Source: a virus. From it: DNA of 64,000 nt. The first letter of the stretch is position 1, and each line of letters begins with the position of its first letter. This document shows, piece after piece, positions 11,133 to 60,713 of the stretch. The stretch is taken from the IMG/VR virus record IMGVR_UViG_3300042351_000809; one strand, 5' to 3'. Both the position numbers and the translations under genes were made by a program. Below the pieces are notes generated by a model, which saw only the letters and a list, made by a program, of their open reading frames with translations, was not told the origin of the DNA and did not search any database.

Positions 11133-11139
11133 CTTATTT

Positions 11140-11169
11140 TATTATTTACACAAAAAAGTGTAATAATAA
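11140..11169. promoter_or_regulatory. Back-to-back divergent putative late promoters (GTGTAAATAATA on minus, GTGTAATAATAA on plus)
   Basis: TATTATTTACAC-AAAAAA-GTGTAATAATAA between divergent operons; the same motif precedes many other structural genes. Confidence 0.7.
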
Positions 11170-11189
11170 GTTGGTAAAAGGTAAAAGGT

Positions 11190-23152: not shown

Positions 23153-23980
23153 ATGACGGATGTATTATTTTCTTTTGGCGACGAATACATATATTCTAAC
23201 AACCTAGCAAACTGGTCCACAATAGAACCCAGTAAAGAAATAGAAATTATTGGCAACCCAGAGAAGTTCTCCGTTGTGCGAACTGCTGTCATTAATTACA
23301 GCAAGCCTTTTACTGTAGAGTCAAATTCTTTAATTAAATTTAGCGGTACAATTAAAGATCTAATTTTAGATGGAGATACTATTGATTGTTATTTTACTCT
23401 TTACTATGCTGCATTAATTAATGATATTACTGAATCTGGATCTGGATATAAAGTAAATGAATATGTAACTATTGGTAAAAATTCTTACTTTGAATCGTCT
23501 ATAGATAAAAACCAAAAAGCTGTCCTTCAAATTAAAGCTGTCAATAGTGATGGTGGTATTACTGAACTCCATTTAATTAACAATGGAAAATTTACTCAAA
23601 ATTTTACTGAAGCAGAATTAGAAGGCGGATCTGGTAAAGGCGCAAAAGTAAGCTTGATTTTGGGCAAAGACAACAAGAAGGCTCTCAAGTTTTTTTCTGT
23701 ATTAGACGTAAAGCGAGAAAACGCTTCTACTCTTGTAATGTTAAATGAAAAGATTAAAGACGACTTCCTTACAGGAGAAGTCTATATAAAACGATACCGC
23801 ATTACATTAAATAAGGCTACGGGTAAAGAATACTTGAATCAAGCATTTATTGTAAAGGTAGAGAAAACTCCTTTCCTTAATCTACCATTAGCCAAAGACA
23901 ATAATATAGAGCAAATCTATAATCAGGCTATACTAACTATAGACTCTAAGATTAAAGAATTATCTGCTGGCGTAAAGTAA
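23153..23980 (+). CDS. Hypothetical structural protein with GSGY-type beta repeat
   Basis: ITESGSGY...DGGITELHLINNG...GGSGKGA; last gene of the tail-tip block, overlapping the TMP end convergently. Confidence 0.4.
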   Translation: MTDVLFSFGDEYIYSNNLANWSTIEPSKEIEIIGNPEKFSVVRTAVINYSKPFTVESNSLIKFSGTIKDLILDGDTIDCYFTLYYAALINDITESGSGYKVNEYVTIGKNSYFESSIDKNQKAVLQIKAVNSDGGITELHLINNGKFTQNFTEAELEGGSGKGAKVSLILGKDNKKALKFFSVLDVKRENASTLVMLNEKIKDDFLTGEVYIKRYRITLNKATGKEYLNQAFIVKVEKTPFLNLPLAKDNNIEQIYNQAILTIDSKIKELSAGVK

Positions 23981-26900
23981 TCCTCCGGGTCTCTTCTGCT
24001 CGACCAATACTTCAACGACTTTGCTTCTGAGCAGTTCAGCAAGTTTAGCATTGTTTTGAATATTGTTCTGATCTTTGTTTGTATTAGAGCCGCCATTTTG
24101 AGTGGTAGCATTAGCTTCAGAAGTGACTTCGCCAGTCTGAGCAACATTAATTGAAATGTTATTAACTACAGACATTCCAGATTCTTGATTTGCTCCAGCA
24201 GCAGAAATTTTACCTGACTCAGCTTGGGTGATGTCATTGCCCTTGGAAAGGTTTTCATTCAATGTATTAAGAGCAGCGACTAGTTCGGTCACGCTAGATT
24301 CAGGCGTATTTTGACCTGCTGTATAGCTTGTGCCAACCATTCCGCCACTGGCATACTTAGGCAATGTGCCAGTATTTAATTGATTCATGAAGTCTCTGCC
24401 GTACATATCTACAGCTTTCTTGTTCATGACATATTCACCACCCATTAATAAAGCAGGAATATTATCTTTGCCTGTTGATCCACCACCAGCAAATCTAGCT
24501 ATATAGCCGCCATTTGATCTAAGATTTCTTGCATATTGAGCATTTAATTGAGCTTGAGTTAAGTTACCTCCGGGTTCTAGACCTCTTGCAGCAGACGCTG
24601 CTGCACTAGTTCTCATATTAGCTGCTCCGACTGTAAGACCAGCAGCACCCAATTGAACAGCAGCAGCAGTTAGACCTGAATAGAAAGTGCTATTTACTTG
24701 ATTTTTATAATTTTTAATAGCTTGTTGTTTGTCTTTCTCATACTGCGATCTGTCTTGCAAGTATTGATCAAGTTTTTCATAGCGATCTTGTCTTAGTCTA
24801 TTTTGAGGATTATTCTCGTCAGTTAAAGCTGCGGCTGATAGTCTAGAATCAACAGCAAACTCTCCAGAAGTTGGACGATCAGGATTGTCATATAAGAACT
24901 CATTTTGCAATGGCCCCATTGAGAACCCGCCTACTGCATATTTGGGAACAAGTCCGCCATTCAAGGCTCTTAAATAATCAGAACCGTATTTTTTAACAGA
25001 AGACTTTTTGATGACGAACTCACCGCCACTCATCATAGCAGGTACATCATCTTTCATTCCAGAGCCGCCAACGACCATACCTCCAGAATTATAGCCCCTG
25101 ATTAAGCCACCGTCTTTTCTGCCAGTTGCAGCAGCTTTGCCAAAAGCGAATAAAGCATCAACTCCCATCTCTAAAGACTTATCAAGCATTCTATTCAAGA
25201 TGCCTTGGAACATATCTCTAAATGCATCCTTAAGTGTCTTAGTTCCTTTGATGGCTTCACCAAATGCACTAGCAATTCCTGATTTAAAATCAGTTTGAAA
25301 AGTATCAATTAATTGACCAGTATCTCTGGCAAAATCAGCTCTATTATAAGTAGTATTCTTTTCAGTAATACCTCCAAAATCAATATTACCAAGTCGAGCT
25401 TGATCTTCTATGCGCCTATTCATTACGGCGGCTCTTTCTTCTTTAAAGAATGTGTTGCTATAAGCTGAATCGTAGAATCTCTTTACTTCTTCATTAGTCT
25501 TTTTTAAGCGTTCGGTTATTTTTTCTCTCTCATCAGCTATTTGCATTTCTAATAACAATTGATCAGCAAGATCTTTGTCGCCTTCTCCATAAATTCTATT
25601 AATCTCTTCTATCTTTTTATTCTTTTGAATTTGAATGTTTTCTTGCGTTTTAGCTAAAGCTTTTTCAGCATCAATTAAGCTTTGAGGCTTTATAGGCGTG
25701 ATTGAAGAGGTATTTTTATTCGAAGCATTAAATTCATAAAATCTAAAACCGGAAGCAGCGGCAGGAGCATTAGTCTTATTAGAAATATTAAGGGCGGTAG
25801 ATGTTTGAGATTGATAAAGCTTGGCCAAAATAGAGTTTAAATTCTCAAGAGGTATATTTATCTTAGAAGCCAACCTTTCTCTACCCGTCTGTTCAGCTTG
25901 ACTAAAAGGCCCAGTATCATTTGCGCCTAATGGTAAACCTGAGCCACTAGGGCTATAGCCTCCAAAAAGAATATCTGGATTTACCATTTGTGACTTTATC
26001 TCTGTCAAAGCTTTTTCTCTTTCAATAACCGAAGCAATTGGTAATAAATTCCTAATCTCTTTTTCTAATTCTACTCTATTTTGAGTGGCAACTATTTCTT
26101 TTAATGCTGCGCTTAGTGAAGAATTCAATGCATCTAATTTTGCGCCTACTTGTTGAGTAGTTATTCTTTCGAAATTTGCATTAATATCAGGAGCTTGTTT
26201 GGCTAAAATCTCTGTTTGAGTTTTTGCTAATTCATTTGCATACTTACTTTCTTGAGCTAATAAATCAAAATAAGTACCAATATTCTCCAGCTTTAACTGA
26301 GAGGTTACTTGGTCGATTGCTATACTTACCGCATCTTCATTTAACTTATTAAAAGCTTCATCTAAAGCTCCACCAGCTTGAATACCTGTTCCTGTTTGAG
26401 ATATTAAACTAATGTTCGTTAGTTTTCTAAGTCTTTCATTTTCTTTTCTAATTTGTCCTGCCCTTGCAGATATAGAAGCATTTTCTAAAGGAGCTAATTC
26501 TGCGCCGACTCCTCCACCTCTAATTCCATATTGATTAGAAAGAGTATCTAGTAATTTAAAGAAACCTGATCCTGTTTCTATTGGATTTCCAACCCTAACA
26601 TTTTGCCCTAAGCTAGAAGTCAATTCAGTTAATTTATCAAACAAATCAGAAACTCCAACTTGACCAGTGCTTCCTAAAGATGCTGCGCCACCAGCTAAAG
26701 AAATCTTTTCGTTTAACTGTAAAGATCTTCTTTGATAATCAGAATTTATCTTTTGAATAGCTAAATCAAATTTTCCTTGCTCAGTAATTTTAGTTAATTC
26801 ATTTAGAACTCCTTCAAAAGTATTTTGTAGCTCTCCTGCGATTAATTCAGCTTCTGGTTTTTTGAAAAGACCTGTCTCAGAAATTCCTTGAATTAGTTTA

Positions 26901-29900
26901 TTTTTTACTTCTTCTATATTGCCGCCAGAACTTAATTCCTTTAGAGAAGTCGAGATAAGAGGCGAAATACCTTGTATATTTTTATTGAAAGTATTTAATT
27001 CTTTTGTGATATCATCTGGGCCTTTTGATGTATCTGTTATTGCTGGCAAAGCTTTTGATCTTATATCTTCGGCCTTCTTTGTAATAACATCTGTTAAAGA
27101 AGACAAACCTTTATCTAAAGCATTTCTTACTTCAGAATTTTGCTTATTTTGTATTTCAGTAATTGCTAAATTAGCTTCTTGTTCTGCCCTTCCTCTTTCG
27201 CTCATAAAAGGAGAAGCCAAACTTAAAGCACCTCTTACTCTTGCAGTAGCTAATTGCACAGAGCCTTCTGCCTGTATCTTATTTAAATCTCTAAGAGTAG
27301 ATGCTCTATTTTTCTCAGCTTCAATCTGAGAAGAAAGAGATAGATTTAAACTTTCATAAGCTTGATTTAAATCTTTTATTGTCTCTGCATTTTTTCTTGC
27401 TATTTCAATATTTTGTTTCTGAACTGCCAAAAGGTTATCTGAAGCTTGCTTTGAACTAAAAATACCTTTTCCAAATTCGTCAATTGCATCAAATAAAGCA
27501 TTTACGTTTTCAGGACTAATTTTCTTAGAAACCTCTTCGAATTTAGCAGCTAACTCTGGTCCGAAAATTCCTTTAGCCTCTAATTGAGATCTTATTCCTT
27601 TTAAAGCTTGCTCATTAATGACTGTTTGAGTCACCATCCTTGGGGCTGATTCTAAGTCTATGCTTTCGGGGCTACTAGTGTAATCTACATAGTTACTAGT
27701 TTTAAAAACTTGGCTTCTTAGACCGCTAACAAAACTTCCGAATTCTCCTGCGCCACCCTTAAAGCCAGAGAGAATATTTTGAGGGTTTACAGATTGAGTA
27801 AATAATCTAGACAACTGCTCTTGATCAGATTTCTTCAAAGTACTTCCAGCAAAAAAGCCCGTCTTATCATTTACTAACTGAGTAATTGCCAATTGTCTTT
27901 CTAAATTCTTTTGAGAATCTGCCATTTCTTTATTAACCTTAGCAATCGCTTCAGATACCTTGCCAATATCTGTTCCTGCGGCCAAAATCTTAGCTCTGAA
28001 TTCTTCTGGAATTGAAGCAAGAGAATCAGTAATGCTTGTTTGGAATTTTAATAAAGCTTGAGGTTGAGTTTTAGGATCATTCAAAGCGTTTTGCAAATTC
28101 TCTAAAGAAGTTGCATAGGTTTGCGATGCTCCAGAAAATTTAGAAGAAGACTCCTTAACTCTATCCAAACTTGTAGAAATATCAAAAATAGCTTGTTCAG
28201 CTTTTGAATCTACTATTTTTTTAGAAGCAACTCCAATTCCAACCAAAGCACCAGCAGCAAGACCAATTGGCCCAAATGCAGCACCTAAACCCGCATATTG
28301 ACCGACATCTGCAATACCTGAAAGCGCCGCTCTACCTGTTTTATTTGATTCTGGAACAAATTGTTCTGCAATATTAGCTACCCCTGCAATTGCTAATCCA
28401 GCACCAGTACCAGAAGTCCTAATCAAGGAATTTAATCTCCCTCCCTCTCTTAAACTTAAAGGATTAAGATAACCTGCTGACGCAATTCTTTGCTCTCTGG
28501 AAGCTCTTGAAGCTATAGCTCTTTGTTCTTCTACTCTGGCTCTTATGCTTTCAAATTCTGCAATTTGTTTTGGATTGGCAAATCTTCCTCCAGTAGTTCT
28601 AAGCCTTCCAGTAACATTTAAATCAGCATCTATATTAGAGAAACTAAACTTCGATTGAGCCTCTTTTCTTAGTTTCTTAATAGAGTTTGCGCTTTCAGCA
28701 ACCTCAGTTCTCTTGTTCTTTATTAGGTTTTGACTTTGAGCATTTATCTCTTTAAAGCTTCCAGCTAAAGATTTTAATTGCCCTCCTAAAGCTATAAGTG
28801 AAAATGTTACCATTGAAATATCAAACTTATCAGCAAAATTAGGAATAAAACCCTCTGCCATCCCTTTAGTTTGAGGATTAACTCCAGCTTTCCTTGCCAA
28901 AGAAATTCCATTTTCTAGAGTCCCTTCGGTTGTGTTATAAACTCCTAGGCCAATTGGATTAAATGATGATTTTAATTGACCACTTTGTCCTACTCTAATT
29001 TGAGAAGCAGAATAACCTGCCGCCATTTCGTTATTTATTGCATTTGATAAAGCATTAAAATTAGGAATAAAGCCAAGAGCCTTTTTGCTACCGGGAGCAA
29101 TACTTTTAACGATTTCTGTGACTTTAGCTCCAGAAGCTTTTAGTTTAGAAGCTTCGGCTGCGATATCTACTGAACCAGCTTTTGCTCTTGCCTCATCTTC
29201 AAATATTTTAATAAATCCTCCAAATTCAGATTCAATCTTTTTTACAAAACTAGCTTCACTATAGTCATCGTATCTGAGTTTGTAGTCTCCTAATGGACTA
29301 GTAAATCCGGGAAATAAATCACGAAGTTTAGCAATATTTTCTCCTCTTCTAATGTCAAAATCTCCTCTAGCTTGACCTTGTGGCTCTCTAACATAATCTC
29401 TTGAAAGATTAACTCCAGCTTCAAATATTTTTCCTGCAAATTGTGCTGCTGGATTTTGAACGGCATTAAGATATTTTTTTCTTGATTCTTCAGTAGCCTT
29501 TTGTCCTCCGGGTAAACTATTGGCAAATTCACTTAATAATTGATTAGCGAAAGAATCAGATCTTGATCTTAAATCTACTTGAGAATTTTGCAAAGCTTCT
29601 TTGCTAAGATTAACAACTTTAAAAGCAATAGGAACATTTCCAGCACCTCTTCCTCTTTGTACTATTTTCCCAGACATTTCTGGGCTTTCTAAAGTTAACA
29701 TGTCTGCCTGAGCCATATATGGAGGCAGTTGAGTGACCTGTCTTCCTACTTCTCTTTCTAAAGCAGCTTGTTTTGGTAACCAGTCTGGTTTTTTAGAAAT
29801 TCTTCTAATTTCTTCAATAGGAACTCCGCTATCATAAGCTCCATTTAAAGTAGCATTAGTCCATTTACCGCCAAGAGTACCATCTGGATTTAATACAGCA

Positions 29901-31852
29901 GTTTTATATTGACCTCTTGCTTGACCAGCAGTAAGCCACTGTTCAACTGTAGGAGCAAAGTTAGGTACATAACCAGTAGCCATATAAGGATTAATTCCTG
30001 TTTGACTCATTGAGCGAGAAGCTAATGAAGAAGCTGCTTTTGAACCTGCTGGAGGGAGAATAAATGGCTGACTAAATCCGGGAACATATTTTACTGTTTC
30101 GGCAGTATTCATTATTCCACCAATAGAAGCAGGAGCATTAACTACATTACCAGCGACATAACCACCTTTAGTAGCAGTCATGATTTCTGACATTCTATCT
30201 TGAGGAGGAATATAGCCTCCAGCAGATCTTCTAGTTACTGATCCTGAACGAGAAACACCCAATCCTCCTGTAATCAAAGATTTGGAAATAGAAGTAGAAG
30301 AAACAGCTATTTGTTGAGACAAAGCAGATTGCTCAACCAGTATTTGTTTAATTTCTTTTTCTACTTGAAGACGAGTTTTTGAACCGGCAATAATCGCAGA
30401 TATTAGATCAGGATTGCGAGATAATATTTGAGATACTTCTCCTTGTACAACGGCTTGTTGTTGAGCTACAGTATTTAATCCTAATAAGTTTTTAGCAGCA
30501 TCTCCAGTAAACTTACCAAAGTTAGCAAAAAGCTTTCCTAATACTGAAGCTCCAATTATCAAACCGGGGCCAGTAATAAAATTAGTAATACCAGTTAAAA
30601 TTCCTGTTCCAATTTTAGCTCCAACGCTCTCTGAGTCTTTTTCATTAATAGAAGATAGCTCTTCATTTATATATCCCAATATTTTTCTAATACCGGGAGC
30701 AACGCTTACAGATCCTACTTTAGTTGCAAATTGGGTTACATTAGCAGTGGTTTCGCTTAGAAGAGCAGATAAACTTTCATTTAAAGCTTTATTTTTTACG
30801 ATAGCTTCATCAACGGCTCTTGAAGAAGCATTTGTCGCACCTGCAAATATAGAGTTTTCTTTAGAAAGATCCGCCAAAGAAGCTTTTAAAATGTTAATCT
30901 GATAAACGCCACCAACTAATTCAGCGACTTGAGATTTAACAACTGGACTCAAGCCTTGGAAAGATTGAGCTAAATTTTCAATAACTTTTATTGCTGGAAG
31001 TGCATTACCAGAGATATCGGTTACAGTAACTCCAAAATCTCTTAAATCATTAATAACTTGAGGTCTCTCTATTCTTGTGAAAATTGTTTTTAAAGCGTTA
31101 CCGATAACAGCACCACCACGGGCAGTTGTCTGTTGAACAGCGGTAACAATACCTAGTAGTTCATCGAAGCTAACTCCTGCCTCGCTTGCAGAAGAACCTA
31201 CACGTTGAATAGCTTCAGAAAGGTCTCTTGAACTAACAGCAAATCTAGCGTCAACAGCAGCTAATTTATTAACAACTTCAGTAGTTGTAAGAGCTTCTTT
31301 TGTAAAAGAGTTTACAGCGGAAGTCAAGGCTTCAGTACTAGAAACGACATCAAGACCAGATAGACGAGTAAGAATTAGAGCGTCTCTTGTTCTTTTTAAA
31401 GTCTCTTGCAAACCCAAGCCCTGTCTTGAGAATTCCGTAGCGGCAGTTGCTACGTCTTTAAAGGAAGAGCCTGTTTGTTTCGCTACAACGAATAACTGAT
31501 CACCAAACTGCTTAATTCCTTTACTAGAAGTGTTTAGAACAATATTTATATCTGTCAGCGATTTTTCTACCTCAATAGTAGAGTTTACTAATGCGCTAAA
31601 AGCCTTCTGTACGTTATAAATAATGCCAGCAGAAGCACCGAATGCGACTACACGGGCATTGGAAGCTTCTAATGACTTTTGGAACTCGTTAGCTAGACCA
31701 GTAATTTTGCCAAGCGGTTGAGAGAAATTTCTCGTATTTAGGTTAAGAGCGCTTTTGCTCTGGATACGAGTTAACGCTGCCAACACATCTTTTTCAAGCT
31801 GGGCAGAGTTAAACGTCGCTGAAATGGGAATATTTCCTGCTGATGTAGCCAT
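23960..31852 (-). CDS. Tail tape measure protein (TP901-type core), 2630 aa
   Basis: N-terminal TP901 core (EFSRQG...LTRLSGLD...IGNALKTIFTR), long helical Ala/Leu-rich body with hydrophobic segments, C-terminal DxVPAMxxGGEFV repeats. Confidence 0.92.
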   Translation of the reverse strand: MATSAGNIPISATFNSAQLEKDVLAALTRIQSKSALNLNTRNFSQPLGKITGLANEFQKSLEASNARVVAFGASAGIIYNVQKAFSALVNSTIEVEKSLTDINIVLNTSSKGIKQFGDQLFVVAKQTGSSFKDVATAATEFSRQGLGLQETLKRTRDALILTRLSGLDVVSSTEALTSAVNSFTKEALTTTEVVNKLAAVDARFAVSSRDLSEAIQRVGSSASEAGVSFDELLGIVTAVQQTTARGGAVIGNALKTIFTRIERPQVINDLRDFGVTVTDISGNALPAIKVIENLAQSFQGLSPVVKSQVAELVGGVYQINILKASLADLSKENSIFAGATNASSRAVDEAIVKNKALNESLSALLSETTANVTQFATKVGSVSVAPGIRKILGYINEELSSINEKDSESVGAKIGTGILTGITNFITGPGLIIGASVLGKLFANFGKFTGDAAKNLLGLNTVAQQQAVVQGEVSQILSRNPDLISAIIAGSKTRLQVEKEIKQILVEQSALSQQIAVSSTSISKSLITGGLGVSRSGSVTRRSAGGYIPPQDRMSEIMTATKGGYVAGNVVNAPASIGGIMNTAETVKYVPGFSQPFILPPAGSKAASSLASRSMSQTGINPYMATGYVPNFAPTVEQWLTAGQARGQYKTAVLNPDGTLGGKWTNATLNGAYDSGVPIEEIRRISKKPDWLPKQAALEREVGRQVTQLPPYMAQADMLTLESPEMSGKIVQRGRGAGNVPIAFKVVNLSKEALQNSQVDLRSRSDSFANQLLSEFANSLPGGQKATEESRKKYLNAVQNPAAQFAGKIFEAGVNLSRDYVREPQGQARGDFDIRRGENIAKLRDLFPGFTSPLGDYKLRYDDYSEASFVKKIESEFGGFIKIFEDEARAKAGSVDIAAEASKLKASGAKVTEIVKSIAPGSKKALGFIPNFNALSNAINNEMAAGYSASQIRVGQSGQLKSSFNPIGLGVYNTTEGTLENGISLARKAGVNPQTKGMAEGFIPNFADKFDISMVTFSLIALGGQLKSLAGSFKEINAQSQNLIKNKRTEVAESANSIKKLRKEAQSKFSFSNIDADLNVTGRLRTTGGRFANPKQIAEFESIRARVEEQRAIASRASREQRIASAGYLNPLSLREGGRLNSLIRTSGTGAGLAIAGVANIAEQFVPESNKTGRAALSGIADVGQYAGLGAAFGPIGLAAGALVGIGVASKKIVDSKAEQAIFDISTSLDRVKESSSKFSGASQTYATSLENLQNALNDPKTQPQALLKFQTSITDSLASIPEEFRAKILAAGTDIGKVSEAIAKVNKEMADSQKNLERQLAITQLVNDKTGFFAGSTLKKSDQEQLSRLFTQSVNPQNILSGFKGGAGEFGSFVSGLRSQVFKTSNYVDYTSSPESIDLESAPRMVTQTVINEQALKGIRSQLEAKGIFGPELAAKFEEVSKKISPENVNALFDAIDEFGKGIFSSKQASDNLLAVQKQNIEIARKNAETIKDLNQAYESLNLSLSSQIEAEKNRASTLRDLNKIQAEGSVQLATARVRGALSLASPFMSERGRAEQEANLAITEIQNKQNSEVRNALDKGLSSLTDVITKKAEDIRSKALPAITDTSKGPDDITKELNTFNKNIQGISPLISTSLKELSSGGNIEEVKNKLIQGISETGLFKKPEAELIAGELQNTFEGVLNELTKITEQGKFDLAIQKINSDYQRRSLQLNEKISLAGGAASLGSTGQVGVSDLFDKLTELTSSLGQNVRVGNPIETGSGFFKLLDTLSNQYGIRGGGVGAELAPLENASISARAGQIRKENERLRKLTNISLISQTGTGIQAGGALDEAFNKLNEDAVSIAIDQVTSQLKLENIGTYFDLLAQESKYANELAKTQTEILAKQAPDINANFERITTQQVGAKLDALNSSLSAALKEIVATQNRVELEKEIRNLLPIASVIEREKALTEIKSQMVNPDILFGGYSPSGSGLPLGANDTGPFSQAEQTGRERLASKINIPLENLNSILAKLYQSQTSTALNISNKTNAPAAASGFRFYEFNASNKNTSSITPIKPQSLIDAEKALAKTQENIQIQKNKKIEEINRIYGEGDKDLADQLLLEMQIADEREKITERLKKTNEEVKRFYDSAYSNTFFKEERAAVMNRRIEDQARLGNIDFGGITEKNTTYNRADFARDTGQLIDTFQTDFKSGIASAFGEAIKGTKTLKDAFRDMFQGILNRMLDKSLEMGVDALFAFGKAAATGRKDGGLIRGYNSGGMVVGGSGMKDDVPAMMSGGEFVIKKSSVKKYGSDYLRALNGGLVPKYAVGGFSMGPLQNEFLYDNPDRPTSGEFAVDSRLSAAALTDENNPQNRLRQDRYEKLDQYLQDRSQYEKDKQQAIKNYKNQVNSTFYSGLTAAAVQLGAAGLTVGAANMRTSAAASAARGLEPGGNLTQAQLNAQYARNLRSNGGYIARFAGGGSTGKDNIPALLMGGEYVMNKKAVDMYGRDFMNQLNTGTLPKYASGGMVGTSYTAGQNTPESSVTELVAALNTLNENLSKGNDITQAESGKISAAGANQESGMSVVNNISINVAQTGEVTSEANATTQNGGSNTNKDQNNIQNNAKLAELLRSKVVEVLVEQKRPGGLLYASR

Positions 31853-31868: not shown

Positions 31869-31880
31869 GAATAATTACAC
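31869..31880 (-). promoter_or_regulatory. Putative late promoter GTGTAATTATTC for the TMP gene
   Basis: Recurring motif, lying between the upstream stop codon and the TMP start. Confidence 0.6.
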
Positions 31881-32897
31881 TTAAACGCCGTGTAATTTAA
31901 TTAAATCTTCAAAGCTTAATGAACCACCTTTTTTCTTCGCCGCTTCATCTAAAGAGATGCTTCCAGTGTTGTCCTGCTTTAATTTCTTTAGGTCTTCCTT
32001 AGTGGCTCCCATCACAGAAACGGCTTGGACAGCGGTTTCTTTGCCTGAAGCCGCATTTTTATCTTCATGAAGCTTTTCAAGATTGCTACTAGACTCATAC
32101 CAATCAATAATCTTATCTACATCATTATTGTACTCATCAGGATGCTTGACACTAGACTTGCTCATTAAGTCTTTGAAGTATCTAGCATAACCAAATAACT
32201 CAACCTGATAAAATGTTAGGTGAGTAACTGGTTTACCATAAAAAAAGTAAGGGTTATCGTCAGCTAAATAGAAATAATTAAGAAAAAATCCACTAACACC
32301 AATTCTTTTGATATTATGATTATTAAATTTTTGGGCGCATTTAGAATATCCAGCAACTAAATTAAATAATTCATTTTGATCTACATCTTCAAACTCCTCT
32401 ACAGTAAAAGCACGTTTTTCGCATTTATCATCAGAATAAACTGAGTAATAAACATAAAACTCATTCATTCTCTTAGAACAGTATGTTTCACAAGTATTCT
32501 CTAACAGCTCATTCTTTTTATGTTCTAAAAGGCGGATCTCTTCAGAGATTTCTTTCATCTGCTTATCAACGCTGTCAAGGTCTCTAGTCAAGTATAGTTT
32601 GCGACGAGTTTTTGTTAAATTAGCAAGAGTTAATTTGTTATTTTCTATCTTTTTATCGTCTTTTTCGCTGTAAATATTTTCTTTAATTAGTTCTTTTATC
32701 TTTTCTTCGTTCGTCGGAATGCCCTGAGATTTGGCTTTATTATAATAATAATTTTCTTGAATTTCTATTGTTCCTGCGTCTTTTGGAGACAAGTGTTTCA
32801 TATAGTAAGTTTTGCCGTTTAAGGTAAATGCAGAAGAGCCTACTATTATTTCCCAATAGAGAGACTTTAAATTTTTATTGAATGCTTCTATGTCCAT
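31881..32897 (-). CDS. Tail assembly chaperone, GT-like (G paralogue plus C-terminal extension)
   Basis: Immediately upstream of TMP; LEHKKNELLENTCET aligns with LEMQKESLFDNTAET of 32950..33690. Confidence 0.55.
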   Translation of the reverse strand: MDIEAFNKNLKSLYWEIIVGSSAFTLNGKTYYMKHLSPKDAGTIEIQENYYYNKAKSQGIPTNEEKIKELIKENIYSEKDDKKIENNKLTLANLTKTRRKLYLTRDLDSVDKQMKEISEEIRLLEHKKNELLENTCETYCSKRMNEFYVYYSVYSDDKCEKRAFTVEEFEDVDQNELFNLVAGYSKCAQKFNNHNIKRIGVSGFFLNYFYLADDNPYFFYGKPVTHLTFYQVELFGYARYFKDLMSKSSVKHPDEYNNDVDKIIDWYESSSNLEKLHEDKNAASGKETAVQAVSVMGATKEDLKKLKQDNTGSISLDEAAKKKGGSLSFEDLIKLHGV

Positions 32898-32902
32898 ATA
32901 CT

Positions 32903-32928
32903 AAAAAGCCCCCGCTTTCGCAGGGGCT
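32903..32928 (-). terminator. Intrinsic terminator-like hairpin between the two chaperone genes
   Basis: AGCCCCTGC-GAAA-GCGGGGGCT followed by a short U tract. Confidence 0.75.
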
Positions 32929-32949
32929 AGGATTAATTTTTGCAAGAAA

Positions 32950-33690
32950 TCAGAAAATCTTTTGCTCTAGTTTTAGTAAATCGAAGTCTTCTCTAGTATT
33001 TGCTCTTCCAACATACCAGAAGCTAATAAAATAAATAAAAGCGTTAGCTGCTTTAGTTAAATGAGGGTCTTCCGATTCAAAAATTTCGTCATACCTGTTC
33101 ATTCGGGCTTCATAATCTCCTTCGCCAAAGAATGGCAGTTTCTCCCCGTTTTTCTCATAGTATGACAAAAATAATATCCACCAAGTAATTACCTTATTAC
33201 GCGCCCTCGTCTCTGCGGTATTATCAAACAAGGATTCTTTTTGCATCTCTAATTCAGTTAGAGAGCTTTTAATTACAGTAATTTTGGTTTCTAGTTCTTC
33301 CTTCTTAGTTACAAAATATTCTGGCCGATCTTTCTCCTCTAAAGCGACAAGTCTTTGTAGCTCATTTTGAGTATCATATAGATCCTTATAGGCATCTGCC
33401 TCTGCGCTCTTAGTCTTGTCTGCTAAGATTCCGCCGTCATCAACATATCTCTTATTTAGGAGTGTACGAGTAAGCAGTCCAGCTTTAACGCCTTCAGAGA
33501 GCTTAACTCCATAAAATAACTCAGCTTCATCAAATAAAGCTCTTGTTGGCTTCTTGATAAAATAATTATGAGGGATTTGAGTTACTACATCTTTGGTAAT
33601 CGTAACCTTTTGTCCAGCTTCATTTACAGACTCTTCTGTTTCTTTTACAATACCCTCTTTATTTACTGCAAATTCGTATATTGTTTTCAT
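32950..33690 (-). CDS. Tail assembly chaperone, G-like
   Basis: Between tube and TMP genes; charged, helical; paralogue of the downstream gene. Confidence 0.55.
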   Translation of the reverse strand: MKTIYEFAVNKEGIVKETEESVNEAGQKVTITKDVVTQIPHNYFIKKPTRALFDEAELFYGVKLSEGVKAGLLTRTLLNKRYVDDGGILADKTKSAEADAYKDLYDTQNELQRLVALEEKDRPEYFVTKKEELETKITVIKSSLTELEMQKESLFDNTAETRARNKVITWWILFLSYYEKNGEKLPFFGEGDYEARMNRYDEIFESEDPHLTKAANAFIYFISFWYVGRANTREDFDLLKLEQKIF

Positions 33691-33908
33691 TATAAATCTA
33701 TATTGTTTAGCTCTTCTTCAAACTGTCTAATAGCATCATTACCAGAATCAAGAACTTTTTTTCTTAATCTTTGGTACTTATCTTCAGATATATTATAACC
33801 ATCTTCTTTTAAATCTTCAAGTAAGATTAAAAAGTTTTTATATAGATTAATAACTTTGCGCCGATTTTGAAAGAGGATGAACTCTTTCATTTTTATATCC
33901 ATAGCCAT
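33690..33908 (-). CDS. Small hypothetical protein; start probably ATG 33908, 33902 or 33890 rather than GTG 33950
   Basis: The ORF-track start overlaps the promoter motif and terminator tail; AAAGG precedes ATG 33908. Confidence 0.55.
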   Translation of the reverse strand: MAMDIKMKEFILFQNRRKVINLYKNFLILLEDLKEDGYNISEDKYQRLRKKVLDSGNDAIRQFEEELNNIDL

Positions 33909-33934: not shown

Positions 33935-33946
33935 TAATCTTTACAC
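33935..33946 (-). promoter_or_regulatory. Putative late promoter GTGTAAAGATTA
   Basis: Recurring motif just after the tube-gene terminator. Confidence 0.55.
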
Positions 33947-33950
33947 ACAC

Positions 33951-33987
33951 AAAAACAAAAAAGCCCCAGTTTTTAGGCTGGGGCTTT
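33951..33987 (-). terminator. Intrinsic terminator after the major tail tube gene
   Basis: AAAGCCCCAG...CTGGGGCTTT hairpin followed by TTTGTTTTT. Confidence 0.85.
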
Positions 33988-34006
33988 GAAGTTGATATTT
34001 ATTTAA

Positions 34007-35191
34007 TTAGTGGAGAGGCAAGGTCTCAAGCATGAATAGTCCTCTATCATTTTGTTGAGGAGAACCGACTTGAGTAGAGAAGTTTAATGTAACTTGCTTG
34101 TTGGCTCCGATTGAAGAAGAGAAGTCTTGTGAATCCAAGTTAAGTCTCTTTAGAACGTAACCAACTCCTTCGCTGGCGATTAAATCTGTATTAGCGACAG
34201 CAGGAGCAGCGAGAGTAATAACTGCATCATAAATACCGTCTGTATTTACTAAATCAACCAAGTTACCAGTAGTAAGATCTTGCACTAAAGCTGTAACAGA
34301 AAGGGTTACAGTAACTGGGAAATCAATTTCTCTTGAATAAGCATATCTGCTTCCGATCTTTTGCAATGGAGTTCTGTTTAGACCCATTGAGATGGAGAAG
34401 TTTTGAATAGCGGCAGAGGTAGTTAAATCTGTACCACCATAAGACTGACCTTGAGTCTTTGTTAAAGAGAAAGAAATATCTCCGTGTCTGAGAGCAGCGA
34501 CTTTTCCAAGAGCGTTTTCGCCATTTGGATTACCAGTAGCTTGAGGAAGAACGAAATTTCCTCCAGCAATATTTCCAGCAGCAGTAACACCGGGAGCAGC
34601 ACCTGAATTTCCATTGCTGAAATTCATATTTAAGCATTCCAAGCTAACAGAAGTAGTTGGGAAATCTCCTACGGCAGCATTAATTGAATAATTAGTTAAG
34701 AAGCCATTGCCTAGTCCAATAGTGCTTCCAACTGAGTTATTTGCAGTTGTATCACTAGCAAAAGAAGAAGCGTCATTTCCTTCACTAACAGTTCTAATGA
34801 AATAGTTCTTTGTATTAACAAATCCACTAGTAAGAATTCCAGATAAACAAGATTGAGTAGCAGCGGCACTAGTTATATTGACAATACCAGTGATTCCTGC
34901 ATCGATAACTGAAAAACCAAGATTTTTTTCATTAGCCATGTCTGTTAGCAAGTAAGTAAAATCAACTCCTACAGTAGGCTGTTCTAGAATAATACGATCA
35001 ATAGCGGCTAGATTGCCGAATTGGTTAACGTCTCTTCTTGTAATATTGAAATTATAATTACAAGATTGAACGCGAGAAAACTGGTTAATATATAAAGCCC
35101 CAGTTTGTGGTGGCGTAGAAGCAGATACATCAACAGTATCTTTTGTATTGAATAGAGCTTCTGATTGGTAAATTACACGATTTCTTGGCAT
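34007..35191 (-). CDS. Major tail tube protein with internally duplicated tube domain
   Basis: Lies between neck genes and chaperones/TMP, with its own promoter and terminator; two halves VQSCNYNFNITRRDVNQFG and IQNFSISMGLNRTPLQKIG. Confidence 0.75.
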   Translation of the reverse strand: MPRNRVIYQSEALFNTKDTVDVSASTPPQTGALYINQFSRVQSCNYNFNITRRDVNQFGNLAAIDRIILEQPTVGVDFTYLLTDMANEKNLGFSVIDAGITGIVNITSAAATQSCLSGILTSGFVNTKNYFIRTVSEGNDASSFASDTTANNSVGSTIGLGNGFLTNYSINAAVGDFPTTSVSLECLNMNFSNGNSGAAPGVTAAGNIAGGNFVLPQATGNPNGENALGKVAALRHGDISFSLTKTQGQSYGGTDLTTSAAIQNFSISMGLNRTPLQKIGSRYAYSREIDFPVTVTLSVTALVQDLTTGNLVDLVNTDGIYDAVITLAAPAVANTDLIASEGVGYVLKRLNLDSQDFSSSIGANKQVTLNFSTQVGSPQQNDRGLFMLETLPLH

Positions 35192-35195
35192 ATTT

Positions 35196-35267
35196 TTAAT
35201 CCTTTAAATTTCTTTTTATTATTACATTTTTTATTGTATTTTGAGAAATTATTATATTCCTCGCCAT
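35196..35267 (-). pseudogene. 23-aa mini-ORF MARNIIISQNTIKNVIIKRNLKD, possible remnant of a tube-protein paralogue
   Basis: Same TAAAAATATG start context as the tube gene; begins M-x-R-N-x-x-I-x-Q like MPRNRVIYQ. Confidence 0.4.
35216..35227 (-). promoter_or_regulatory. Putative late promoter variant ATGTAATAATAA for the tube gene
   Basis: One mismatch to the recurring motif, ~25 nt upstream of the ATG. Confidence 0.5.
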
Positions 35268-38058: not shown

Positions 38059-38081
38059 AAAAAAAGCCCCTTTCGGGGCTT
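38059..38081 (-). terminator. Intrinsic terminator
   Basis: AAGCCCC-GAAA-GGGGCTT followed by a U tract. Confidence 0.85.
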
Positions 38082-60628: not shown

Positions 60629-60664
60629 ACCATATACTAATGTATATAAACAAAAATATAAAAT

Positions 60665-60694
60665 AAAAAACCCCGGAGGGTTGCCTCCGGGGTT
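60665..60694 (-). terminator. Intrinsic terminator after the major capsid gene
   Basis: CCCCGGAGG-CAAC-CCTCCGGGG followed by TTTTTT. Confidence 0.9.
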
Positions 60695-60713
60695 AAAACT
60701 AAAGAAGTTTTAA

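What the first reader, a model, noticed from the sequence alone, without database searches (positions are those of the whole stretch)
31881..33690. Tail chaperones G and GT as two paralogous genes separated by a terminator, not a programmed frameshift
Established: most long-tailed phages make G and a rarer GT from one locus by ribosomal frameshifting. Seen: the two genes before the TMP are paralogues (YFIKKPT...AGLLT vs YYMKHLS...QGIPT; LTELEMQKESLFDNTAETRARNK vs IRLLEHKKNELLENTCETYCSKR), and the second has an extra C-terminal region of over 100 aa. An in-frame TAG two codons before its ATG blocks a frameshift fusion. A GAAA-loop hairpin with a short U tract ends 5 nt before that ATG, and no GTGTAA motif follows it. 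Inference: the G:GT ratio is set by leaky termination or occlusion of the start site.
Basis: partly seen in the sequence, partly recalled or inferred. Interest (0 to 1): 0.75.

Follow-up and report, generated by a model that had tools for sequence, protein, structure and literature searches.

The report
Two-gene tail chaperone pair, no frameshift
In the slot where long-tailed phages normally make a short and a long tail-assembly helper from one gene by ribosomal frameshifting, this uncultured lake phage and all 80 related viral contigs examined carry two separate, distantly related genes, with a conserved terminator-like hairpin between them here; a two-gene solution is already published for T4-like phages, so this is a new variant, not a new principle.

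Summary
On the minus strand the order is putative tail tube gene (394 aa), a small conserved ORF (72 aa), gene A (246 aa), a 9-bp GNRA hairpin with a T-run, gene B (338 aa), then a 2630-aa tape measure gene. An in-frame TAG lies two codons before B's ATG, and no alternative frame stays open across A's stop, so no frameshift fusion is possible.

A and B are probably distant paralogues (profile-profile E 7e-4 over 176 collinear columns; 25 shuffled controls all lower). Neither matches any known chaperone family or fold, so the chaperone label rests on lambda-like gene order. It also rests on one new result: B's conserved C-terminal peptide is modelled docking on the tube protein (score 0.61, best control 0.00), as lambda's T domain does.

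The A-B pair is kept in all 80 related contigs, but the junction varies: terminator-like hairpins, hairpins that pair the ATG, or abutting GTG/TTG starts. A conserved GTGTAA promoter-like motif precedes the small ORF and the tape measure gene, never B.

Dosage control by leaky termination is plausible but untested. This scan noted the same locus in a related genome and two-gene chaperones in other phages. T4-like phages are a published precedent (Vladimirov et al. 2022).

The parts
34007..35191 (-). Putative major tail (tube) protein gene, 394 aa
   Evidence: It sits upstream of the chaperone slot and the tape measure gene, in the same order in all 80 related loci. A strong terminator-like hairpin follows it. 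A few family members weakly hit PF09393 tail tube (E 0.013), phrog_365 tail protein and phrog_290 minor tail protein. The window's own protein has no family hit and no fold was predicted for it.
33960..33987 (-). Terminator-like hairpin after the tube gene
   Evidence: 10-pair stem followed by T6 G T5; predicted -18.1 kcal/mol.
33941..33946 (-). GTGTAA promoter-like motif in front of the 72-aa ORF
   Evidence: One of 7 intergenic GTGTAA sites that all point at the downstream gene. A GTGTAA lies at a clade-specific fixed distance upstream of A in most relatives.
33690..33908 (-). Conserved small ORF (72 aa from the ATG at 33908); its stop overlaps A's start as TAATG
   Evidence: Homologues at 33-63% identity lie between the tube gene and A in all 80 loci. 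An AAGGA sequence precedes its ATG, and the TAATG overlap with A is visible.
32950..33690 (-). Gene A, 246 aa: proposed short tail assembly chaperone (analogue of G / TAC-N)
   Evidence: It belongs to a family of more than 564 proteins, all unnamed. The AF2 model has pLDDT 83 and shows a beta hairpin plus long helices. The protein is acidic (pI 5.1) while the tape measure protein is basic (pI 9.0). It has no family or fold match.
32907..32928 (-). GNRA-loop hairpin between A and B; the T-run runs to 32903
   Evidence: -19.0 kcal/mol. In 21 close relatives it is conserved, with GAAA, GCGA or GAGA loops and one compensatory pair. Terminator-like hairpins of different sequence sit at the same place in L071, L080 and L088, and a homologous one in L091.
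32901..32903 (-). TAG in B's frame, two codons before B's ATG
   Evidence: It is conserved in all close relatives.
31881..32897 (-). Gene B, 338 aa: proposed long chaperone (analogue of GT / TAC-NC)
   Evidence: 43 homologues were found in the word-indexed protein search, and a B homologue follows A in all 80 related loci. The AF2 model has pLDDT 80. Residues about 35-220 align collinearly with A. B directly follows A in all 80 loci.
31884..31955 (-). B residues 315-338: conserved C-terminal peptide on a disordered linker, predicted to dock on the tube protein
   Evidence: Residues 286-294 and 308-316 have pLDDT below 50. The peptide contains nearly invariant residues. The module occurs only at the C-terminus of B-family proteins.
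31875..31880 (-). GTGTAA motif directly after B's stop, 22 nt before the tape measure ATG
   Evidence: It is present between B and the tape measure gene in every distinct relative examined.
23960..31852 (-). Tape measure protein gene, 2630 aa; last gene of the minus-strand operon
   Evidence: PF10145 E 3e-30 and PHROG tape measure families. It converges with the plus-strand genes for lambda-like M, L, K, K and J.

Best explanation
A and B are the tail-assembly-chaperone pair of a lambda-like siphovirus tail module, encoded as two separate, anciently duplicated genes and not as one gene with a programmed frameshift.

A (acidic, 246 aa) would be the abundant short form. B has an A-like N-terminal domain, an extra helical region, a disordered linker and a conserved C-terminal peptide that docks on the tube protein. 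B would therefore do what lambda gpGT does: link the chaperone-coated tape measure to the first tube subunits.

The two are translated independently; no recoding occurs. Their relative dosage would be set at the A|B junction. In this clade a conserved intrinsic-terminator-like hairpin ends most transcripts that start at the GTGTAA motif before the 72-aa ORF. B has no such motif and no Shine-Dalgarno sequence of its own, so it would be made only from read-through RNA. In other clades the same junction carries an ATG-pairing hairpin, or a weak GTG/TTG start abutting A's stop.

Shown: gene order, separateness, lack of open alternative frames, conservation of the hairpin, junction diversity, motif distribution. 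Inferred: chaperone function, binding, termination, and that B is made in smaller amounts than A.
For: Position:
- The order is tube, 72-aa ORF, A, B, tape measure, with lambda-type M (PF05939), L (PF05100), K (JAB + NlpC/P60, twice) and J (PF13550) on the other strand.
- This order is kept in all 80 related loci.

No recoding:
- Alternative frames across A's stop are open for at most 63 nt, and A has no slippery heptamer.
- B takes all three frames relative to A among relatives, with tandem stops in some.
- No longer fused forms were found, which is weak evidence.

Paralogy:
- BLASTP gives E 5e-5.
- hhalign of 179 against 109 sequences gives score 34.4, E 7e-4, over 176 collinear columns. The best of 25 reversed or shuffled controls is 24.8.
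- Both AF2 models have the same order of secondary-structure elements.

GT-like role of B:
- The complex of the tube protein with B 215-338 scores 0.61; the best of 3 controls is 0.00. That mark was reached by 58 of 80 solved complexes and by 2 of 110 mismatched pairs.
- The runs agree in at least 57% of contacts, and the partner's pLDDT is at least 47.
- Contacts fall on B 315-338 and on tube residues that include the invariant N45, F48, P72, V74, N188 and F191.

Junction:
- The hairpin is under purifying selection.
- GTGTAA precedes the 72-aa ORF and the tape measure gene and is never in the A|B junction.
- Among 65 distinct junctions, 12 have a terminator-like hairpin, 6 another hairpin, 40 an abutting GTG/TTG start and 7 an abutting ATG. 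This needs at least 8 state changes on the tree.

Established model for comparison: G:GT is about 30:1, G binds the tape measure protein and T binds the major tail protein (PMC5009743).
Against: - No sequence or fold link to any known tail assembly chaperone. Pfam, PHROGs, PDB sequence profiles, Foldseek against PDB and BFVD, and VIA-align give only generic helical hairpins.
- A and B are about twice the size of typical G proteins.
- The paralogy signal is weak: 15-21% identity, and hhalign probability only 26%.
- The tube identity of the 394-aa protein rests on position and marginal hits.
- In the complex model the partner's own fold is uncertain (pLDDT 47-51), and my own alignments were used, so the calibration counts hold only roughly.
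- Binding of A or B to the tape measure protein was not tested.
- There is no quantitative expression evidence at all.
- The hairpin's T-run is short (5 T), and the hairpin could instead stabilise the upstream mRNA.
Confidence: 0.55

Rival explanations
1. A and B are tail proteins but not assembly chaperones. They could be structural parts of the virion, such as tube initiator, adaptor or tail-completion proteins, that happen to sit before the tape measure gene. B's C-terminal peptide would then anchor it permanently to the tube.
For: There is no similarity to any known chaperone family or fold. Both are much larger than typical G proteins. The predicted contact with the tube protein fits a structural partner as well as a chaperone.
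Against: In lambda-like modules the genes between the tube and tape measure genes are the chaperones, and the rest of the module here is lambda-like. The pattern of a short form plus a long form sharing an N-terminal domain mirrors G/GT. A is acidic and the tape measure protein is basic.
Confidence: 0.2
2. The hairpin does not attenuate transcription. It acts after transcription, as a 3'-end barrier that stabilises the 72-aa-ORF-A message, or as a structure that hinders 30S loading on B, or it is ordinary operon punctuation with no dosage role.
For: The T-run is only 5 nt and is followed by AGUAU. The stem ends 10 nt before the ATG, inside a ribosome's footprint. Four relatives have a hairpin that pairs B's ATG and has no T-run. 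No RNA data show 3' ends.
Against: The element has the full anatomy of an intrinsic terminator. In four other lineages, hairpins of different sequence (L071, L080, L088) or homologous to this one (L091) keep a T-run. The other three strong hairpins of the operon follow genes expected to be highly expressed, and each is followed by GTGTAA, which fits terminator-promoter pairs.
Confidence: 0.3
3. The likeness of A and B is convergent: two helical proteins of similar composition, not a duplication. B would be an unrelated gene.
For: Identity is 15-21%. hhalign probability is 26% with the large alignments and 3.5% with the small ones. Both proteins are rich in long helices, which inflate alignment scores. 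The two models could not be superposed with the tools at hand.
Against: The real score of 34.4 over 176 collinear columns stands clear of 25 reversed and block-shuffled controls (maximum 24.8, at most 102 columns). The B profile finds A proteins at E down to 6.5e-7 in a local ORF set. The invariant T-x-E motif and the order of strands and helices correspond.
Confidence: 0.2
4. A hidden recoding event still makes a fusion: either the 72-aa ORF joined to A by a -1 shift (A's frame is open 28 nt upstream of that ORF's stop), or A joined to B by stop-codon read-through.
For: The geometry of the 72-aa ORF and A (short upstream ORF, downstream frame at -1, overlap of a few codons) resembles G/T. In five or more relatives B is in frame with A, one codon after A's stop.
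Against: There is no slippery heptamer in the last 28 nt of the 72-aa ORF. A starts with an invariant Met-Lys in all 47 aligned homologues. In relatives the 72-aa ORF match and A lie about 20 to 290 nt apart. In the window B's frame is closed by TAG two codons before its ATG. Among relatives B's frame relative to A is 0, +1 or +2, and some have tandem in-frame stops.
Confidence: 0.03

Closest known systems
Lambda gpG / gpGT tail assembly chaperones (programmed -1 frameshift; Levin 1993 and Xu, Hendrix and Duda 2004 from my own knowledge; summarised in PMC5009743)
   Same: Same slot between the major tail gene and the tape measure gene, in a lambda-like tail module. There is a short form and a long form that share an N-terminal domain. 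The long form's C-terminal part is predicted to bind the major tail protein.
   Different: Here there are two genes with independent starts and no shared sequence. There is no frameshift site and no open overlapping frame. The proteins are about twice as large and show no detectable sequence or fold relation. Dosage is presumably set by a terminator-like hairpin or a weak start codon, not by slippage efficiency.
T4-like phages' TAC-N / TAC-NC made without frameshifting (Vladimirov, Gautam and Davidson, Virology 2022;566:9-15). I know it only from its title and from its citation in PMC12846349; the paper itself is not held.
   Same: It is a published case in which the short and long chaperones of a long-tailed phage do not come from a translational frameshift. 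Per earlier scan notes, these are separate genes 26 and 51.
   Different: That is a myovirus hub context; this is a lambda-like siphovirus module. There is no BLAST-level similarity of A or B to anything in 50,697 GenBank phage records. The junction devices described here (hairpin, GTG/TTG restart) were not compared with T4.
Internal intrinsic terminators that grade expression within an operon, for example the terminator after gene VIII of filamentous phage f1 and the one between rpsU and dnaG in E. coli (my own knowledge, not checked here)
   Same: A G+C-rich hairpin with a U-run inside a co-oriented gene cluster, with no promoter directly after it, so the downstream gene depends on read-through.
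   Different: Function here is inferred from sequence alone. The hairpin ends only 10 nt before the next start codon, so it may also limit translation initiation.

Membership tests
Lambda-type G/GT tail assembly chaperones | Genes lie between the major tail (tube) gene and the tape measure gene | tested here: met
   The tape measure protein is identified (PF10145 3e-30). The lambda-like M, L, K and J genes are identified. The order tube, 72-aa ORF, A, B, tape measure is kept in 80 loci. The tube identity itself is only weakly supported.
Lambda-type G/GT tail assembly chaperones | The long form is made from the short form's gene by a programmed frameshift into an overlapping frame | tested here: not met
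   Alternative frames across A's stop are open for at most 63 nt. A has no X_XXY_YYZ site. TAG closes B's frame two codons before its ATG. B's frame relative to A varies among relatives.
Lambda-type G/GT tail assembly chaperones | Sequence membership in a described chaperone family (Pfam Phage_TAC families, PHROG tail assembly chaperone families) | tested here: not met
   No such hit for A or B at E up to 1, nor for any of 47 A-family or 32 B-family members at E up to 0.01. No PDB sequence hit with profiles.
Lambda-type G/GT tail assembly chaperones | Chaperone fold | tested here: inconclusive
Lambda-type G/GT tail assembly chaperones | The C-terminal part of the long form binds the major tail protein | tested here: met
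   In silico only. Complex score 0.61, best of 3 controls 0.00. The mark was reached by 58 of 80 solved complexes and 2 of 110 mismatched pairs. Runs agree in at least 57% of contacts, and the partner's pLDDT is at least 47. The model supports binding; it does not show it.
Lambda-type G/GT tail assembly chaperones | Both forms bind the tape measure protein | not tested
The tape measure protein is 2630 aa and no segment could be chosen.
Lambda-type G/GT tail assembly chaperones | The short form is in large excess over the long form, and both are absent from virions | not testable with these tools
   Only assembled contigs of two river metatranscriptomes hold a relative of this locus, and they give no expression levels.
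T4-type two-gene TAC-N / TAC-NC | Short and long chaperones are encoded by separate genes that share an N-terminal domain | tested here: met
   Separate genes in all loci. Collinear profile alignment of A 44-234 with B 35-220, E 7e-4, above 25 controls.
T4-type two-gene TAC-N / TAC-NC | Sequence relation to T4 gp26 / gp51 | tested here: not met
   tblastn of A and of B against 50,697 GenBank phage records found nothing at E up to 0.01. No profile comparison with gp26 or gp51 could be made.
Intrinsic (Rho-independent) terminator | G+C-rich stem-loop directly followed by a U-run, downstream of a stop codon | tested here: met
   9 pairs (7 G-C), GNRA loop, -19.0 kcal/mol, 5 T, starting 21 nt after A's stop.
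Intrinsic (Rho-independent) terminator | The structure is kept in evolution | tested here: met
   94% identity against 52-55% at third codon positions. One compensatory pair. Loops stay GNRA. Hairpins of different sequence with a T-run sit at the same junction in other lineages. Formal covariation is uninformative.
Intrinsic (Rho-independent) terminator | Transcripts end at the U-run in vivo or in vitro | not testable with these tools
   No raw RNA reads of this phage are available.

The most novel reading that the evidence does not exclude
In this large clade of uncultured aquatic siphoviruses, the ratio of short to long tail chaperone is a selected trait. After the frameshift was replaced by a gene duplication, that ratio has been set by at least three interchangeable devices at one junction: a leaky terminator, an ATG-sequestering hairpin, and a weak GTG/TTG restart coupled to A's stop. 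These devices have replaced one another at least eight times. The pair belongs to a chaperone fold family not yet described, whose long member recruits tube subunits through a short C-terminal docking peptide.
Probability: 0.35. Interest if true: 0.7.

Novelty: new variant of a known kind. Interest (0 to 1): 0.55.

Why it matters
The G/GT frameshift is among the most conserved recoding events in viruses, and the usual explanation is that it fixes a ratio of two chaperones. A large natural clade that lacks the frameshift would help test that explanation. It keeps a short form and a long form, and it keeps changing the device at their junction. This would show that the two-protein scheme and its dosage are what selection preserves, not the frameshift.

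It also offers reporter-testable junction variants and a short predicted tube-docking peptide as an entry point to how tube polymerisation is started on a very long (2630-aa) tape measure.

On the practical side, A and B are unnamed families with hundreds of members that could now be annotated. Many database copies of B appear truncated because gene callers missed their GTG or TTG starts.

Tried and rejected
- Family and fold searches for A and B gave nothing specific: Pfam, PHROGs (single proteins and all alignment members), PDB sequence profiles, Foldseek against PDB and BFVD, VIA-align wide, and the ESM Atlas. Only helical hairpins and unnamed viral clusters came back.
- Rfam found no family at the hairpin; the best match had E 0.74, far under the gathering score.
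- GenBank phages hold no match for A, B or the tube protein.
- The window's own assembly is not held.
Distant relatives were reached through the search for related loci with an alignment instead.
- RNA: two river metatranscriptome runs hold contigs of a roughly 90%-identical relative. These cover the tube gene and the 3' third of A. No contig covers B or the hairpin. These are contigs, so this says nothing about levels or ends.
- Fused forms: no protein of 432-2000 aa related to A was found, which is weak evidence.
- Hidden frameshift joining the 72-aa ORF to A, and read-through joining A to B, were considered and rejected.
- Covariation statistics on the hairpin are uninformative because it barely varies.
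- A search with B's last 50 residues found the module only at the C-terminus of B-family proteins or their fragments. The three long hits are low-complexity matches. The module does not recur elsewhere in the window.
- The two AF2 models could not be superposed on each other because model coordinates are not exposed to the script box.
- Full-text searches found no paper describing this phage group or a paralogous two-gene chaperone pair in siphoviruses.
Full report
**What is there**

All features lie on the minus strand. In order of transcription:
- a 394-aa gene (34007-35191);
- a strong hairpin with a T-run (33987-33960);
- a GTGTAA motif (33946);
- a small ORF that, read from its first ATG, gives 72 aa (33908-33690), with its stop overlapping the next start as TAATG;
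- gene A (33690-32950, 246 aa);
- a 52-nt spacer holding a hairpin (32928-32907: 9 pairs, 7 of them G-C, GAAA loop), a run of five T, then AGTAT;
- gene B (32897-31881, 338 aa);
- a second GTGTAA directly after B's stop (31880);
- a 2630-aa gene (31852-23960).

The last gene is a tape measure protein (PF10145, E 3e-30, plus many PHROG tape-measure families). It is the last gene of its strand. It converges with plus-strand genes that match lambda gpM (PF05939), gpL (PF05100), two JAB + NlpC/P60 gpK-like proteins and a gpJ-like protein (PF13550). The tail module is therefore lambda-like, and A and B occupy the place of lambda G and T.

**Check of the observation**

- The quoted peptide pairs lie in the one significant BLASTP segment (A 102-231 with B 79-215, 21% identity, E 5e-5).
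- B runs 118 residues past the aligned part.
- TAG at 32903-32901 is in B's frame, two codons before the ATG.
- The T-run ends 5 nt before the ATG.
- There is no GTGTAA after this hairpin.

GTGTAA itself is a real signal. Of its 25 occurrences in the window, 7 lie in the 1322 nt (2%) of intergenic DNA. All 7 point at the downstream gene. They include both directions of the divergent gap at 11133-11189, where promoters must exist.

**No recoding**
- Across A's stop codon the two other frames are open for only 63 and 57 nt, and A holds no X_XXY_YYZ heptamer.
- A's frame is open for 28 nt upstream inside the 72-aa ORF, but no slippery site lies there. A begins with an invariant Met-Lys in all 47 aligned homologues. 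In relatives the small ORF's match and A lie about 20 to 290 nt apart.
- Among relatives B lies in frame 0, +1 or +2 relative to A. Some have tandem in-frame stops between the two genes.
- A search for longer, fused relatives of A found none, which is weak evidence.

**Are A and B related?**

Small family alignments gave a weak profile-profile match (E 0.012). Larger alignments (179 A-family and 109 B-family sequences, taken from databases and from the related loci) gave hhalign score 34.4 and E 7e-4. That match covers 176 collinear columns, A 44-234 with B 35-220. One reversed and 24 column- or block-shuffled versions of the B alignment scored at most 24.8, with at most 102 aligned columns. 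A profile of B also finds A proteins in a local ORF set at E down to 6.5e-7.

The two AF2 models (pLDDT 83 and 80) show the same order of elements: a beta hairpin, a long helical hairpin, a helix after a conserved T-x-E motif, a small beta hairpin, then more helices. I could not superpose the models. I rate an ancient duplication as likely (about 0.75), not proven.

**What are they?**

Neither protein matches any Pfam or PHROG family, any solved structure by sequence profile, or any fold in PDB or BFVD beyond generic helical hairpins. A few BFVD rows labelled as tail assembly chaperones appear, but all at E above 0.2.

The chaperone reading rests on three points:
- Gene order, as described above.
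- Charge: A is acidic (pI 5.1) and the tape measure protein is basic (pI 9.0).
- A direct in-silico test of what defines the long form in lambda. There, the T part binds the major tail protein and the G part binds the tape measure (PMC5009743).

For that test I folded the 394-aa protein with B residues 215-338, each with its own alignment.
- The score was 0.61 (three runs, 0.58-0.63) and the best of three controls was 0.00.
- That mark was reached by 58 of 80 solved complexes and by 2 of 110 mismatched pairs in the tool's calibration. The calibration holds only roughly here because my own alignments were used.
- The runs agree in at least 57% of contacts, and the partner's pLDDT is 47-51.
- Confident contacts are between B 315-338 and tube residues 45-50, 72-74, 134-137, 152-158 and 188-198. 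B 315-338 is the conserved peptide that follows a disordered linker.
- On the tube side these include six invariant residues (N45, F48, P72, V74, N188, F191). On the B side they include seven invariant or nearly invariant residues.
- The model supports binding; it does not show it.

The peptide module occurs only at the C-terminus of B-family proteins.

The tube identity of the 394-aa protein is itself weak. It rests on position, on the strong terminator after the gene, and on marginal hits of a few family members to PF09393 (tail tube) and to tail-protein PHROGs.

**Comparative anatomy of the junction**

Twenty-one close viral contigs (71-93% protein identity) keep the hairpin, the T-run, the TAG and the ATG. 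Their loops are GAAA, GCGA or GAGA, all of GNRA type. The most distant of these contigs changes one G-C pair to A-U. Against that relative, A and B are 72-74% identical in DNA and 52-55% at third codon positions, while the 36 nt from hairpin to ATG are 94% identical.

A profile-based search brought in 60 more distant loci (43-49% identity). All 80 loci have A directly followed by B, inside the same six-gene order. The junction itself is labile. The 65 distinct junctions fall into four classes:

| Junction class | Count |
|---|---|
| Terminator-like hairpin, then ATG | 12 |
| Other hairpin | 6 |
| B starts with GTG or TTG within a few bases of A's stop, or overlapping it (forms such as TAGTG and GTGnnTGA) | 40 |
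| Abutting ATG (TAATG, ATGA) | 7 |

- The 12 terminator-like cases are the window's clade plus L091, L071, L080 and L088. L091 has a homologous hairpin; the other three have different stem sequences.
- In four of the six 'other hairpin' cases the hairpin pairs B's ATG and has no T-run.
- The GTG/TTG starts are required to include the conserved N-terminus of B.
- On a FastTree of A plus B the four states need at least 8 changes.
- GTGTAA is never in the A|B junction. It stands before the small ORF in most lineages, and between B and the tape measure gene in every distinct relative.

**Most likely mechanism**

Transcription would start at the GTGTAA element before the 72-aa ORF. That ORF has an AAGGA ribosome-binding sequence, and A is coupled to it through TAATG. 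Most transcripts would end at the hairpin. B has neither the motif nor a Shine-Dalgarno sequence, and its ATG lies 10 nt after a -19 kcal/mol stem. B would therefore be made only from read-through RNA, and inefficiently. The tape measure gene has its own GTGTAA element.

In other clades the weak coupled GTG/TTG start or the ATG-pairing hairpin would have the same effect. All of this predicts that A is made in larger amounts than B, as in lambda's 30:1 ratio. None of it is measured. The hairpin could equally act as a stabiliser of the upstream message or mainly as a block to initiation.

**Comparison with what is known, and novelty**

The system works like lambda G/GT but fails two of that family's defining features: the frameshift and family membership.

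A non-frameshift origin of the short and long chaperones has been published for T4-like phages (Vladimirov, Gautam and Davidson 2022). I could verify only its title and its citation in PMC12846349.

Earlier notes of this scan describe the same locus in a related genome. They also describe two-gene chaperone pairs in several other uncultured phages. The principle is therefore not new.

What is new here:
- the protein families, which are unnamed and have hundreds of members;
- the predicted docking peptide;
- the diversity of devices at one junction.

I rate this a new variant of a known kind, with moderate interest.

Noticed in passing
window 59969, 38975, 38058, 33946, 31880, 11151 (minus strand) and 11158 (plus strand): GTGTAA, usually followed by A/T-rich sequence and often preceded by a T-run, is a candidate phage promoter element. 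Seven of its 25 occurrences lie in the 2% of the window that is intergenic, always pointing at the next gene, and in both directions in the divergent gap 11133-11189. It is invariant in front of the tape measure gene in all relatives.
   Followed up: partly
window 33690-33908 (minus strand): A conserved 72-aa ORF sits between the tube gene and A. It has its own AAGGA ribosome-binding sequence and a TAATG overlap with A, and it is present in all 80 related loci at 33-63% identity. Its function is unknown; it could be a third assembly factor.
   Followed up: partly
window 60640-60712, 38064-38081, 33960-33987 (minus strand): Strong terminator-like hairpins follow the 381-aa gene (likely capsid), the 275-aa Ig-domain gene and the 394-aa tube gene. 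At least two are directly followed by GTGTAA. This looks like a series of terminator-promoter pairs that punctuate the structural operon.
   Followed up: partly
loci L082, L106, L109, L121, A|B junction: In these relatives the 42-49-nt spacer folds so that B's ATG pairs with an upstream TTCCAT. This is a start-codon-sequestering hairpin with no T-run (predicted -8.5 to -13.3 kcal/mol).
   Followed up: no
loci L077, L083, L085, L096, L100, A|B junction: B is in the same frame as A, starting with GTG one codon after A's TAA (TAA-nGT-GTG). Stop-codon read-through would give an A-B fusion in these lineages only.
   Followed up: no
proteins P0168, P0177, P0192: Some database copies of B are only 245-292 aa long yet carry the C-terminal module. 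Gene callers probably started them at an internal ATG because the true start is GTG or TTG.
   Followed up: no
window 23960-23980: The tape measure gene (minus strand) and the 275-aa plus-strand gene overlap tail to tail by 21 nt. The lambda-like M-L-K-K-I-J block is inverted relative to the rest of the tail module.
   Followed up: no
window 34001-34642, 34936-35257 and 32943-33282: Contigs from two river metatranscriptome runs, from a relative about 90% identical, cover parts of the tube gene and the 3' third of A. This shows presence in RNA libraries only, not expression levels.
   Followed up: partly
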